Below, piece by piece: positions 20,072 through 39,347 of a stretch of 64,000 nt of DNA. The notes below the pieces were generated by a model. It had not been told where the DNA came from, did no database searches, and saw only the letters and a program-made list of their open reading frames with translations. The DNA is from Lama glama. Lineage: Eukaryota. Numbering within the stretch: position 1 is the stretch's first letter; each line of letters starts with the position of its first letter. The position numbers and the translations under genes are program-made. The stretch covers positions 496,001 to 560,000 of the forward strand of contig CM052831.1 in NCBI GenBank assembly GCA_028534125.1, in the 5' to 3' direction.

Positions 20072-20207
20072 GCCCCGCAGGCTGGAGCCCGTGTGCTCGG
20101 GGCTGCAGGCCCAGATTCTCCACTGCTACCGAGACCACCTGCAGGAGGTGCTCCTGTGCGCAGACCTAGTCAAAGCCTACCAGCACTGCGTGAGCACCGC
20201 CCACAAG
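20072..20207 (+). CDS. CHCHD6: CHCHD6 penultimate exon encoding the CHCH domain (twin CX9C): [45 protein letters not shown]
   Basis: Acceptor ctctctctgtcctgcag|G and donor AAG|gtaagg; 136 nt. The C-X9-C-X10-C-X9-C spacing is visible and the sequence matches the MIC25 C-terminus. Confidence 0.96.
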
Positions 20208-21579
20208 GTAAGGCCAGCTCCCCTGGCCGCCCACCGGGCAGCTGGCGCCTCTGCCCACTGGCCCGCCAAGCCAGCATCCTGACCTCCCGCCCACCATGTC
20301 CACGGCTGGCCCCTGAGTGCTCCAGGCATCTGCGTGGGGAAGGGGGTGTGGGCGCAGCCTGCTAGGCTGGGTCCAGGAGCTGTGCTGGGTATAGTCAGGC
20401 CCCACTGTTCAGAGGTGGCCACCCAGCCCTTACCTCTGGGCTGTTGGGCGGGGGATGCATGTGCAGGCTGGGGTCGTGGAGAGGGCTGGGCCACCCAGTA
20501 GAAGGGGGCAGAGCCCTGCTCGAGAGGGCAGCTCTGCACCCACCCAGCTCCTGTGCTGGCCCAACTGACGGGACCAGCCTCTGGGGAGTGGGCGGGCGAT
20601 GGTGGCCCCAGGTCCCGTGCACTCCTCAGCCGGCATCAGGGGCTCTCCAGGCTATTGTGTCATCTGGGGTGCAGTGGCCCTGCCCTGAGACCTGGCCTCC
20701 CTCCAGTCCCTCCCTGCCGGCTCCCCCAGCTCCCAGCCTCCGCCCCCAGGCACCTCCTCACTCTGGGCAGCTTGGGCTCACCAGATGGCTGGTATGTTTG
20801 TTGGAAGAGCTGCGGGGCACGGCCTTCCTCCCTGGGACAAGCCTCTGTTGCCAAGTAGGAGACAGGCGGGTCTGGATCGCTTCTGCGCACAGCCCGCCTG
20901 CCCACACCACCCTGGGCTCCACAGGGACCAGCTGGGCCTGGAGCCTGGGGAGGAGGTCAGGTGTCCTCTGCGAGCTGCAGCCAGTGCAGGGGAGGCACCC
21001 GCGGGCCCCTCGTCCTCGCCTAGGGAGGCTCCAGTCTTAGAGACCCCCCGGAGCGATTCACTCCTGCAAGCGGCCAGGTGGCCGGGACCATCCCTGGCAC
21101 CAGGGAGCCAGCCTAGGACTCAGGCCACCTGATCCAGGGCGGAACCTCCCCGGCTGCTAGACGAGCTCAGCCCAGCGTGGTGGTCGCCAGGAAGCGCGCT
21201 GGCGTGTGGACATGCTGGTGCCTTGGGTGCAGGCCCTGCGGGCAGCCAGAGGGCGTGAGAGCGCTCACCTGAGCACGTGCTGGGGGAGGGTCACAGGAAA
21301 TCTGTGCGGTTAAGGCGAGAACAAGAGGGACCCCCCAGGGCAGAGGAGGACTGGCCAGCACCGTCTGTACGTGGGGCGGGCGGGAGGTCGGTGGAGGAGG
21401 GGCCATGTCAGCTAGGGGCCGCAGGCACGTGCGTGTGGGCACTGGGCTTGGAGGGGAGGAGGCCCAGTCCCAGGCTGCAGGGACCAGCTGGGTGGGGGGT
21501 GCGTGTCCATTTAGCGGTCGCCCCCATGGAGCAATACCTGGAGGGGACGCCAGCGACTGACCTCTATTCTCCCTCGCAG

Positions 21580-21585
21580 GGCTGA
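21580..21585 (+). CDS. CHCHD6: CHCHD6 terminal exon, coding part (Gly-stop)
   Basis: Branch-point-like ctgac and a pyrimidine tract, ctctattctccctcgcag|GGC TGA. Completes the known ...AHKG* C-terminus. Confidence 0.88.
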   Translation, partial: G

Positions 21586-21770
21586 CAAGCAGCCTCACTC
21601 CTGGCCTGGCAGTGACTTGGAGCCCTGATGAGGGGACCCATGTGGGACCATAACCCACAGACCCCTGGGCCACAGCCTGTCCTGCTGGGCGCCTCTGCTG
21701 CCCCTGTGCTTGAGAAACTGTGTATGCACCTGTCCACGGACAAATAAAGCATTTGTCTTTGTTTTCTCTC
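21586..21770 (+). other. CHCHD6: CHCHD6 3' UTR (end approximate)
   Basis: Lies between the stop codon and the AATAAA/GU-rich element. Confidence 0.75.
21743..21768 (+). terminator. CHCHD6: CHCHD6 polyadenylation signal
   Basis: AATAAA at 21743-21748 followed by the T/GT-rich ttgtctttgttttctctc, about 160 nt after the stop. Confidence 0.8.
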
Positions 21771-36639: not shown

Positions 36640-36790
36640 CGTTCATTCATTCATCCATTGATTCATTCACTGATGAGTGTAAGCTCCCGGGCTGCCTCTG
36701 GGCCTTGGTGGGAGACCACAGAGCCAGGCTCTGCACTCCGCGGACCTGCCATTCTGGCGTGGGGAGCATCCGGGACCAACGTGTAACAAG
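36640..36790 (-). mobile_element. L2 3' end fragment
   Basis: ttcattcattcatccattgattcattcact tail followed by L2-like sequence. Confidence 0.5.
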
Positions 36791-38159
36791 ACTGTTAGCA
36801 CGTGGCACACTGCAGATCAAGGAGTGACGGCCTGAGAGAGGCGGCTGTGCCTTCAGCCGGCGGGTCTGGGGAGACAGCTGAGGCACAGGGCTGTGGGCAG
36901 GGAGGGAAGAGCATCCCGCGGAGGGGCCAGCCAGCCCAGGGCCCGGGGAGGCCGGGGAGCCCTGAGCTGCTGGGACAGACGGCCCTACGGCCAGCTCCCA
37001 GCCTGGGCTTGGCAGGAGGCACCTACAGGTTCAACATCAGCTTACCTGCCTGTAAAACGTGGGGTGTTGTCTGGGGCAGAGTGAGCGCAGCCCCGCCAGT
37101 GCCCACCCACAGTGGGGGCTCAGGGCTGCTGTGGTCAGCTCCGTCCAAGAGTGGGGTGAGGCCACGGCTTATCTGGGAACGTGACCAGCAGAGCCAGGGC
37201 AGGACCCCTGCTGGCTCTGAGAGGGCACCCCTGACCTTCCAGCCTTCATCCTGGGGAGAGGAGCTGTCATCATCTCTGACCGAGGCTGGGAAAGAGGACC
37301 GACCCCGGCAGGGCCGCGAGGCTGTGGCGAAGCAGGGTCTACGTTTAACCCGGCCCTGCTGCCGACTTGTGGGCAGTGGGGAGATGAGACTTTCGAGAGG
37401 AAATGGGGCCACCCAGGATGTGGGGGCAGCAGTTTGCTGGGGGTAGGGATGGGAGATGGAGGTACCCATAGCAGGGCTCCTGGGTCAGTCCTCAGAGTCC
37501 TCCCAGGCTGCGCTCAGGTCAGCCAGTGAGTGGCCCCAGGGTCAGTGTGGCCCAGCCTGCTTTCTGCCAGTGCTGAGAACAGCTGCCCGAGTGTCCTCAT
37601 CTGCTGTGGGGCGGTACCCATCAGTAGGGCTGCCTGGGGCCTCGGGCAGAGGGGTTGTCACCCACCCTGGGAGTTTGGGGCTGGGGAATCTGAGTCAGGA
37701 GGTGATAGCCTCCAGGTTTGGGTGTTCATGGGGCACCTCATCTAGACCCTGAGCCCTTGTCACCCATCTCATCCTTCTGGGTCCCTCTCACTCCTCCCCA
37801 GCTAGGGCGGCCCAGGCGGCGATGGCGTGTGTGTCACTGGGCTGGTGTCCTGTGCTGCCTGCCGTGGTCATGGGCTTGATCTGGCTGCCTGCAGGGCTGC
37901 GGGCCAGGGAGGTGCCCTCTCTGTACCTCCAGCGTCTCCTGGATGCTTAGGTCACTGCCGGAGGCGGAACGTCCCAGCAGAGGATGGGCACCCAGAGCAC
38001 GTGCGTGTGCGCCTGTGGGCGCATCTGTGTCCTCCGAGGATGAGGGCCGTGCTGTTCACCACCCTCTCCCGCCTATTCTTCCACAGGGCTGAGGCTCCCC
38101 GCCCCGTGATGCACGTCCCTGCAGGACCTGAGCGCCTGGGCCTCAGGCCGCAGCCCACT

Positions 38160-39347
38160 ATGCCGCTGCCATGTCTGAGCCCACCAGCGCCACCAGCGCC
38201 GCCGCTCCTGCTGCTCCTGCTGCTCCTGCTGCTGGGGGGCGCGCCTGGGGCGGGCGGGGGTCCACAGCCCGCCTTCCGCACCTTCACAGCCAACGACTGG
38301 GCCCTCACTCATCTGGTGGTCCACGAGCAGACGGGCGAGGTATACGTGGGCGCCGTGAACCGCATCTATAAGCTGTCGGGGAACCTGACGCTGCTGCGGG
38401 CGCACGTGACAGGCCCCGTGGAGGACAACGAGAAGTGCTACCCACCGCCCAGCGTGCAGTCCTGCCCGCACGGCCTGGGCAGCACCGACAACGTCAACAA
38501 GCTGCTGCTGCTGGACCAGGCTGCCAACCGCCTGCTGGCCTGTGGCAGCGCCTCGCAGGGCATCTGCCAGTTCCTGCGGCTGGACGACCTCTTCAAGCTG
38601 GGCGAGCCCCACCACCGCAAGGAGCACTACCTGTCGGGCGTGCGCGAGGCGGGCAGCATGGCGGGGGTGCTGATCGCCGGGCCGCCCGGCCAGGCACAGG
38701 CCAAGCTCTTCGTGGGCACGCCCATCGACGGCAAGTCGGAGTACTTCCCCACGCTGTCCAGCCGCCGGCTCATGGCCAACGAAGAGGACGCCGACATGTT
38801 CGGCTTCGTGTACCAGGACGAGTTCGTGTCCTCGCAGCTCAAGATCCCCTCGGACACGCTGTCCAAGTTCCCGGCCTTCGACATCTACTACGTGTACAGC
38901 TTCCGCAGCGAGCACTTCGTCTACTACCTCACCTTGCAGCTGGACACGCAGCTGACCTCGCCCGACGCCGCCGGCGAGCACTTCTTCACGTCCAAGATCG
39001 TGCGGCTGTGCGTGGACGACCCCAAGTTCTACTCCTACGTCGAGTTCCCCATCGGCTGTGAGCAGGCGGGGGTGGAGTACCGCCTGGTGCAGGACGCCTA
39101 CCTGAGCCGGCCCGGCCGCGCCCTGGCCCACCAGCTGGGCCTGGCCGAGGACGAGGACGNNNNNNNNNNNNNNNNNNNNNNNNNNNNNNNNNNNNNNNNN
39201 NNNNNNNNNNNNNNNNNNNNNNNNNNNNNNNNNNNNNNNNNNNNNNNNNNNNNNNNNNNNNNNNNNNNNNNNNNNNNNNNNNNNNNNNNNNNNNNNNNNC
39301 TCTCGCTGCCCTGGCTGCTCAACAAGGAGCTGGGCTGCATCAACTCG
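38160..39347 (+). CDS. PLXNA1: PLXNA1 exon 2 coding part (exon starts 38087): signal peptide and most of the Sema domain; contains a 140-N gap
   Basis: Acceptor ttcttccacag|G at 38087. Reads MPLP, a Leu10 signal, [35 protein letters not shown] ... [14 protein letters not shown], then donor TCG|gtgagt. An in-frame upstream ATG exists at 38109. Confidence 0.97.
39160..39299. other. Assembly gap / masked bases (140 N)
   Basis: Run of N within PLXNA1 exon 2. Confidence 1.

What the first reader, a model, noticed from the sequence alone, without database searches (positions are those of the whole stretch)
20072..38162. CHCHD6 last exon and PLXNA1 exon 2 start identically (cag|GGCTGA): a read-through splice would yield intact MIC25 plus the plexin ORF on one mRNA
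Seen: the CHCHD6 CHCH exon ends in phase 0 (AAG|gt, 20207) and its normal last exon supplies only GGC TGA (21580-21585). The PLXNA1 exon-2 acceptor at 38087 is also followed by GGC TGA. Established: read-through transcripts between tandem genes typically join the upstream penultimate exon to downstream exon 2. Inference: here that splice would encode the exact wild-type ...AHKG* protein, with in-frame plexin ATGs 16 nt (38109) and 67 nt (38160) after the stop. The result would be a potential bicistronic or NMD-coupled transcript linking a MICOS gene to a semaphorin receptor. A 6-nt match can be coincidence.
Basis: partly seen in the sequence, partly recalled or inferred. Interest (0 to 1): 0.7.

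Follow-up and report, generated by a model that had tools for sequence, protein, structure and literature searches.

The report
Plexin uORF stop mimics MIC25 ending
Two neighbouring mammalian genes have exons that start with the same glycine-plus-stop letters, likely by coincidence: in PLXNA1 the stop likely closes a small upstream reading frame of its own message, so a spliced read-through RNA would probably be a rare by-product bound for decay, not a two-protein message.

Summary
In detail: both acceptors read cag|GGCTGA, and the phase and both ATGs are as stated. The window is camelid. It holds two ATGs in phase 0 at its donor, so PLXNA1's normal splice gives 12- and 54-codon uORFs ending at that same TGA. 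A bird PLXNA1 contig has GGCTGA at the same acceptor, yet bird MIC25 ends in seven further residues. The PLXNA1 stop therefore appears older than the match. Meerkat, otter and marmot models break the match. Read-through has indirect support: two gibbon RefSeq models splice the exon before the CHCH exon in frame onto PLXNA1 exon 2, and dog and horseshoe-bat MIC25 records are named plexin A1. No RNA test succeeded (nothing laid). Best reading: a uORF stop plus a coincidental match; any read-through RNA is likely rare and degraded by NMD. The scan had no note on this locus, only an analogous NEK3-NEK5 case.

The parts
4259..4329 (+). CHCHD6 coding exon before the CHCH exon; 71 nt, phase-2 donor AA|gtaaga. 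Spliced to 38087 it would be in frame with plexin A1.
   Evidence: tblastn of camel MIC25 P0029; acceptor and donor read; no stop in 381 codons when read into PLXNA1 exon 2; same join in gibbon models P0181 and P0186
20072..20207 (+). CHCHD6 CHCH-domain (penultimate) exon, phase-0 donor
   Evidence: Pfam CHCH E 8e-07; 100% identical to camelid MIC25
21580..21765 (+). CHCHD6 last exon: GGC TGA (21580-21585), short 3' UTR, AATAAA at 21743-21748 followed by a U-rich tract; 3' end approximate
   Evidence: 96 of 120 listed MIC25 hits end in KG
33000..34400 (.). CpG island and presumed PLXNA1 promoter (GC 0.845, CpG o/e 0.96), with three GC boxes and an NRF1-like GCGCATGCGC at 33516 (motif name recalled)
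33530..33746 (+). PLXNA1 exon 1 (5' end approximate), donor cct|gtgagt
   Evidence: only GT[AG]AG donor in 33500-34400; marmot model P0012 maps along it and three bat models begin in its last 17 nt and continue into exon 2
33588..33590 (+). upstream ATG 1 (weak context); 54-codon uORF ending at 38090-38092 after the normal splice
33714..33716 (+). upstream ATG 2 (gcggcgATGg; G at -3 and +4); 12-codon uORF ending at 38090-38092 after the normal splice
38087..38092 (+). GGC TGA at the start of PLXNA1 exon 2: last codon and stop of the exon-1 uORFs; also the would-be MIC25 end in a read-through splice
   Evidence: same hexamer in bird contig L017:1618-1623
38109..38111 (+). in-frame upstream plexin ATG (17-residue extension); overlapped by a TGA that closes the third frame
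   Evidence: Met at or next to this place in 30 of 31 mammalian records that show the extension (biased, since many models start there)
38160..39347 (+). plexin A1 main ATG and coding part of exon 2 (signal peptide, start of the Sema domain); exon ends at 39347

Best explanation
The GGC TGA at the start of PLXNA1 exon 2 is likely the stop of a short upstream reading frame that starts in PLXNA1 exon 1, and its identity with the CHCHD6 last exon is likely a coincidence that arose later, when mammalian MIC25 apparently lost six C-terminal residues. Shown in the sequence: exon 1 has ATGs at 33588 and 33714 in phase 0 at its donor, and both frames end at 38090-38092 after the normal splice. Inferred: some scanning ribosomes start at 33714, make 12 residues and stop, which would lower plexin A1 output. 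Plexin would then come from leaky scanning to 38109 or 38160, or from reinitiation, more likely at 38160 (67 nt on) than at 38109 (16 nt on). Messages on which only the uORF is read would be NMD-sensitive. Inferred: polymerase that escapes the CHCHD6 poly(A) site occasionally splices a CHCHD6 donor to this acceptor. From the CHCH exon this would give normal MIC25 with a stop 1,255 nt before the next junction, so the RNA would be decayed, with little plexin made after a 231-codon frame. From the exon before it, it would give an in-frame MIC25(no CHCH)-plexin frame. Both are likely rare by-products.
For: uORF geometry. The exon 1 to exon 2 splice is supported by four orthologous models. GGCTGA lies at the inferred exon-2 acceptor of a bird PLXNA1 contig, while bird MIC25 ends QK plus ELLVNSG (3 of 5 cluster members), and frog, shark and electric-eel MIC25 also carry seven-residue tails. 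Of 16 mammalian models reading across the exon start in the plexin frame, 14 keep the Glu that carries the GA of the stop; three bats show a change that is silent in the uORF frame (Asp-Glu); meerkat keeps the stop but changes Gly to Ala although its MIC25 still ends KG. In marmot both uATGs are inferred to sit in the third frame and this stop is lost. The paralog pair CHCHD3-PLXNA4 shows no match. Human PLXNA1 mRNA rises on UPF1, DIS3L2 and XRN1 knockdown. No UGGGA reinitiation motif.
Against: No Ribo-seq or RNA evidence was obtained here. The only PLXNA1 row in the PMC10032668 supplements is a downstream ORF, so this uORF is not in that catalogue. Exon 1 of the bird and fish was not available, so their uATG and its phase are unknown. 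Two fish contigs keep GGCT without the stop, which also fits a splicing constraint. Otter appears to have lost the stop with no frame information. Mammalian DNA was inferred from protein models, and Ala-Glu does not fix the T of TGA. The marmot inference rests on one draft model. PLXNA1 did not rise on SMG6 knockdown, and the passages read do not name its NMD feature. The chance expectation is only 0.03-0.5 per genome.
Confidence: 0.6

Rival explanations
1. GGCT is kept at this exon start as part of the splice signal (or just evolves slowly), and the stop and uORF are incidental and unselected.
For: GGCT follows the acceptor in 4 of 4 lineages with DNA (camelid, bird, two fish), but TGA in only 2. 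Neighbouring leader residues are also fairly conserved in mammals. The uORF peptide frame is not conserved between camelid and marmot.
Against: TGA is identical in bird and camelid while the following bases diverge. The stop is kept through bat and meerkat substitutions next to it. The uATG at 33714 has a strong context.
Confidence: 0.17
2. Safe read-through: mammals were selected to make the two exon starts interchangeable, so a frequent CHCH-exon to PLXNA1 exon-2 splice still yields full-length MIC25 and drains into NMD.
For: Mammalian MIC25 ends exactly where a read-through splice would end it, whereas other vertebrates have seven-residue tails. 13 of 16 mammalian models are compatible with Gly-stop. 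Merged gene names occur in dog and horseshoe bat.
Against: The match appears lost in meerkat, otter and marmot, and meerkat and otter MIC25 still end KG. An NMD-bound RNA makes little protein, so selection on its last residue should be weak. The in-frame route from the preceding exon is left open. 0 of 124 further listed MIC25 records carry a plexin name.
Confidence: 0.1
3. Functional bicistronic message: the CHCHD6 promoter drives an mRNA from which ribosomes make MIC25 and then reinitiate to make plexin A1.
For: An in-frame ATG lies 16 nt after the stop and is kept in 30 of 31 records showing the extension. An induced CHASERR-CHD2 fusion RNA is reported to be translated into the downstream protein (search listing only).
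Against: Reinitiation after a 231-codon frame is inefficient in mammals (established knowledge, recalled). There is no UGGGA in the last 100 nt of the CHCH exon. The stop lies 1,255 nt before the next junction, with many junctions after it. In the bird the first plexin-frame ATGs lie about 150-180 nt downstream, behind another uORF.
Confidence: 0.05
4. The biologically relevant join is the in-frame one from exon 4259-4329, giving a MIC25(no CHCH)-plexin A1 fusion protein.
For: Two gibbon RefSeq models, XP_030657533.1 and XP_058293356.1, have exactly this join. The frame is open in the camelid.
Against: Seen in only 2 closely related species among 55 mammal-centred plexin records examined. It loses the CHCH import domain and buries the signal peptide about 200 residues in. 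The frame is closed in the bird by a stop 33 nt into the exon. No peptide evidence.
Confidence: 0.05

Closest known systems
Short AUG uORFs in vertebrate 5' leaders, including uORFs that span the exon 1/2 junction and make the host mRNA an NMD substrate (class knowledge, recalled; reviews PMC5972666 and PMC10275272 seen as search listings only)
   Same: Strong-context uATG, out of frame with the main ORF, stop 16 and 67 nt before in-frame starts; the host mRNA is reported UPF1-sensitive.
   Different: Translation not shown; not in the PMC10032668 ORF tables; its last codon and stop happen to equal the neighbour gene's last exon.
cis-spliced read-through chimeras between adjacent genes (cis-SAGe, conjoined genes)
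   Same: Same strand, about 12 kb between the CHCHD6 poly(A) signal and PLXNA1 exon 1, canonical sites, penultimate exon to exon 2 geometry; merged or fused annotation in gibbons, dog and a bat.
   Different: The penultimate-exon route would give the unaltered upstream protein rather than a chimera or a frameshift; RNA not observed here.
Termination-reinitiation messages (influenza B M1/BM2, PMC3035654 listing; caliciviral TURBS, recalled)
   Same: A stop closely followed by a downstream start.
   Different: No UGGGA motif, no stop-start overlap, and the message is spliced with many downstream junctions.
CHASERR-CHD2 fusion transcript (10.1101/2025.05.28.656657, search listing only)
   Same: An upstream neighbour joined to the downstream gene, giving a message that could make the downstream protein.
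   Different: CHASERR is a lncRNA; here a 231-codon ORF with a stop precedes plexin.
Paralog pair CHCHD3-PLXNA4 in this genome
   Same: Same tandem order and strand; the CHCH exon ends in phase 0.
   Different: About 243 kb from the CHCH exon to the plexin exon; last exon encodes SMLEKGG; PLXNA4 exon 2 starts GGA GCC with no stop.

Membership tests
short regulatory uORF | AUG in the spliced 5' leader upstream of the main start | tested here: met
   ATGs at 33588 and 33714 in exon 1; exon and donor supported by orthologous models, not by RNA
short regulatory uORF | out of frame with the main ORF and stops before it | tested here: met
   phase 0 against plexin phase 2; stop at 38090-38092
short regulatory uORF | start and stop conserved | tested here: inconclusive
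   stop in bird DNA and compatible in 14 of 16 mammal models; uATGs inferred only for marmot, in another frame; no stop at this place in two fish
short regulatory uORF | translated and represses the main ORF | not testable with these tools
   absent from the PMC10032668 tables; needs Ribo-seq or a reporter
cis-SAGe read-through chimera | adjacent, same-strand genes within tens of kb, no rearrangement (criterion recalled) | tested here: met
   read-through intron would be 17,879 nt; contiguous on G000:C16
cis-SAGe read-through chimera | canonical donor and acceptor, penultimate exon to exon 2 | tested here: met
   AAG|gtaagg and ccacag|G
cis-SAGe read-through chimera | junction-spanning RNA observed | tested here: inconclusive
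   0 records laid from 4 of 24 listed runs, no test; only annotation hints, and the clean one uses another donor
termination-reinitiation (TURBS-type) bicistronic mRNA | UGGGA motif shortly upstream of the stop (motif recalled) | tested here: not met
   no TGGGA in the last 100 nt of the CHCH exon
termination-reinitiation (TURBS-type) bicistronic mRNA | stop and restart overlapping or close | tested here: inconclusive
   no overlap; 16 nt to the first in-frame ATG
termination-reinitiation (TURBS-type) bicistronic mRNA | both proteins made from one mRNA | not testable with these tools
   needs a reporter
EJC-dependent NMD substrate | stop more than 50-55 nt upstream of a junction (rule recalled) | tested here: met
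   1,255 nt from the stop to the end of exon 2

The most novel reading that the evidence does not exclude
An old amniote uORF stop at the start of PLXNA1 exon 2 acted as a ready-made alternative last exon for the upstream gene. Mammalian CHCHD6 then trimmed its own last exon to the same Gly-stop, so read-through splicing yields intact MIC25 while replacing PLXNA1's uORF-bearing exon 1. One hexamer would then terminate two different frames and couple MICOS gene termination to plexin A1 dosage.
Probability: 0.08. Interest if true: 0.75.

Novelty: new member of a known kind. Interest (0 to 1): 0.3.

Why it matters
If the uORF is real, it offers a concrete cause for PLXNA1 being a reported NMD target and a handle on plexin A1 dosage: mutating or blocking the uATG should raise the protein. 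It also predicts that 5' leader variants at the uATG or this stop matter (PLXNA1 disease links recalled, not checked). It explains why annotation pipelines sometimes merge CHCHD6 and PLXNA1. uORFs and read-through splices are both common, so this is a useful detail rather than a new kind of system, unless the convergence reading holds.

Tried and rejected
Laying 4 of the 24 listed runs (X23, X16, X11, X9) on 37880-38204 gave no laid records; the tool marks this as no test. Duplication of one acceptor from the other: rejected, 57 of 341 background sites score as well. Shared ancestry of the match with CHCHD3-PLXNA4: rejected. Three fused MIC25-plexin models (rhino P0003, Myotis P0004, Fukomys P0202) insert unrelated sequence between the genes and were set aside as likely gene-prediction artefacts. 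No Rfam family in 19900-39100. No unusual fold of 38087-38200 (z -0.96). No Pfam hit for the uORF frame. The exon-1 DNA search in the own genome gave only GC-rich, low-complexity matches. PLXNA3's presumed first-exon CpG region gave no ATG or GT[AG]AG donor in the stretch scanned, so a family-wide uORF is neither shown nor excluded. Viral and prokaryotic contig scans gave no relatives. PDB search gave nothing significant. The published PLXNA1 uORF peptide has no 5-mer match on the + strand of the window. Chimeric-RNA supplements for PMC7038929, PMC11128028 and PMC13721984 had no CHCHD6 or PLXNA1 hit, but the files held were small (344, 86,472 and 17,766 characters), so this is no test. The supplements of PMC13275300 were not seen.
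Full report
Observation. All coordinates check. The CHCH exon (20072-20207) ends AAG|gtaagg in phase 0; the last exon starts GGC TGA at 21580 with AATAAA at 21743; PLXNA1 exon 2 starts GGC TGA at 38087 with plexin-frame ATGs at 38109 and 38160. The closest proteins are camelid: alpaca plexin A1 is 96% identical over the first 90 residues, and alpaca and camel MIC25 are 100% identical over the CHCH exon. 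By chance, GGCTGA follows 8 of 6,910 YAG sites and Gly-plus-stop 22 of 6,910; the 9-mer is not enriched in the window (6 against 3.65). With assumed inputs I expect 0.03-0.5 such pairs per genome. The match is uncommon, but chance is not excluded.

A CpG island at 33-34.4 kb holds PLXNA1 exon 1, with one GT[AG]AG donor at 33747. A marmot model maps along this exon and three bat models start in its last 17 nt, and all four continue into exon 2, which supports the 33746 to 38087 splice. ATGs at 33588 and 33714 (G at -3 and +4) are both in phase 0 at the donor, so in PLXNA1's ordinary mRNA they open 54- and 12-codon frames that end at the same TGA. The third frame is closed by a TGA overlapping the 38109 ATG. 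The stop thus has a role without any read-through.

Conservation. DNA came from three metagenome contigs of PLXNA1 type (one search returned 4 loci; L020 is another plexin A and was set aside). L017 is avian plexin A1, 100% identical to a rhea record over 60 residues. Its inferred exon-2 acceptor is followed by GGCTGA, then by a two-codon uORF and a longer leader. Two fish-like contigs have GGCTCC and GGCTGG, with the phase-0 frame closing 25 and 11 codons on. For mammals only proteins were available. Of 55 plexin records examined, 16 read across the exon start in the plexin frame: 10 Ala-Glu (compatible with GGC TGA), 3 Asp-Glu (bats; Gly-stop), 1 Pro-Glu (meerkat; Ala-stop), 1 Ala-Gln (otter) and 1 Ala-Val (marmot), the last two implying loss of the stop. 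In marmot both uATGs are inferred to be kept but in the third frame. This fits decay of an unused stop but rests on one draft model.

The CHCHD6 side. 96 of 120 listed hits (of 181) and 77 of 115 further cluster members end in KG; the rest are intron-retaining, alternative or fused ends. Meerkat and otter MIC25 still end KG. Bird MIC25 ends QK plus ELLVNSG (3 of 5 members; one partial, one alternative end), Xenopus NLLFNHG, shark MLLVNHG and electric eel NHLVNHG. The paralog CHCHD3 in this genome has a last exon encoding SMLEKGG after a phase-0 intron, so I infer the same intron position in birds. The ancestral last exon gave seven residues ending in Gly; mammals keep only the Gly. In birds a read-through splice would not give wild-type MIC25, yet the PLXNA1 hexamer is there, so it appears older than the match. 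The two intron ends show no sign of duplication. PLXNA4, downstream of CHCHD3, starts exon 2 with GGA GCC.

Does read-through happen? Not tested directly: none of four runs laid on the exon-2 start. Indirect hints exist. RefSeq models for two gibbons (XP_030657533.1, XP_058293356.1) read ESTIKAEAPG, joining the exon before the CHCH exon (phase 2) in frame to PLXNA1 exon 2; Pfam on the first finds MIC19_MIC25 and all plexin domains but no CHCH. The same join is open in the camelid from exon 4259-4329. A horseshoe-bat MIC25 is named plexin-A1 isoform X6, four dog MIC25-type records are named Plexin A1, and the Nomascus MIC25 isoform X3 accession sits next to the fusion's. These suggest merged loci, which pipelines usually build from linking RNA (recalled, not shown). 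Against frequency, 0 of 124 further listed MIC25 records carry a plexin name.

Mechanism. Shown: the frames, phases and distances above. Inferred: the uORF diverts scanning ribosomes; plexin comes from leaky scanning or from reinitiation after 12 codons; uORF-only rounds expose the mRNA to NMD, as the stop is 1,255 nt before the next junction. In a read-through RNA the same stop follows a 231-codon frame, there is no UGGGA motif, and 11 further poly(A) hexamers lie between the genes. Decay is therefore expected, with little plexin made.

Literature seen. bioRxiv 10.1101/722702 (abstract, outline, passages) lists PLXNA1 among natural NMD targets that rise on UPF1 and DIS3L2 knockdown in HeLa. 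PMC11507897 (passages) finds it up on XRN1 but not SMG6 knockdown. Neither set of passages names the feature responsible, and a long 3' UTR is a rival cause (recalled). bioRxiv 10.1101/2025.09.15.676162 (passages) reports a peptide from a PLXNA1 uORF in one tumour; it does not match this window's + strand. PMC10032668 supplements (6 files searched, one cut) list only a PLXNA1 downstream ORF. Searches for CHCHD6+PLXNA1 (6 papers), MIC25+plexin (0), CHCHD6+readthrough (3) and PLXNA1+uORF (2) showed no title or abstract start on this read-through or this uORF; the first and third sets were seen as listings only. Large chimeric-RNA and ORF tables were not effectively seen and may already list either feature.

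Verdict. The sequence feature is real. It is best read as a PLXNA1 uORF stop that happens to equal the shortened mammalian CHCHD6 last exon (0.6), with low-level read-through as a likely by-product. A functional bicistronic message is unlikely (0.05). It is a new member of known kinds; interest 0.3.

Noticed in passing
window 4259-4329 with 38087: Phase-2 CHCHD6 donor fits PLXNA1 exon 2 in frame; this join is annotated in two gibbon RefSeq models as a MIC25(no CHCH)-plexin A1 fusion.
   Followed up: partly
window 33730-33746: Three related bats (Desmodus, Pteronotus, Artibeus) have models starting at an in-frame Met in the last 17 nt of exon 1, where the camelid has GCG; possibly a lineage-specific new start.
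   Followed up: partly
window 33520: An ATG inside the NRF1-like motif opens the plexin frame through all of exon 1 without a stop; it probably lies at or before the transcription start.
   Followed up: no
G000:C7, L004 and L012-L014: CHCHD3 and PLXNA4 lie in the same tandem order; the PLXNA4 exon-2 leader is open in phase 0 up to its ATG, so a CHCHD3 CHCH-exon splice would be an in-frame fusion, about 243 kb away.
   Followed up: partly
L003 (PLXNA2-like, G000:C408037): The presumed exon 2 begins with a start-stop element (ATG TGA) five bases after the acceptor.
   Followed up: no
L017:1644 and L018:665-668: An ATG 23-28 nt into exon 2 occurs in camelid (plexin frame), bird (two-codon uORF) and one fish (17-codon uORF); it is absent in the other fish.
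   Followed up: partly
window 21580-21585: Mammalian MIC25 lacks six C-terminal residues present in bird, frog, shark and fish orthologs and in MIC19; the date and effect of the loss are unknown.
   Followed up: partly
window 20072-20207, ruminant records P0299, P0305-P0307, P0344, P0349: Cattle, buffalo and deer isoforms end LCADLG, implying an internal phase-0 donor in the CHCH exon that removes the last cysteine.
   Followed up: no
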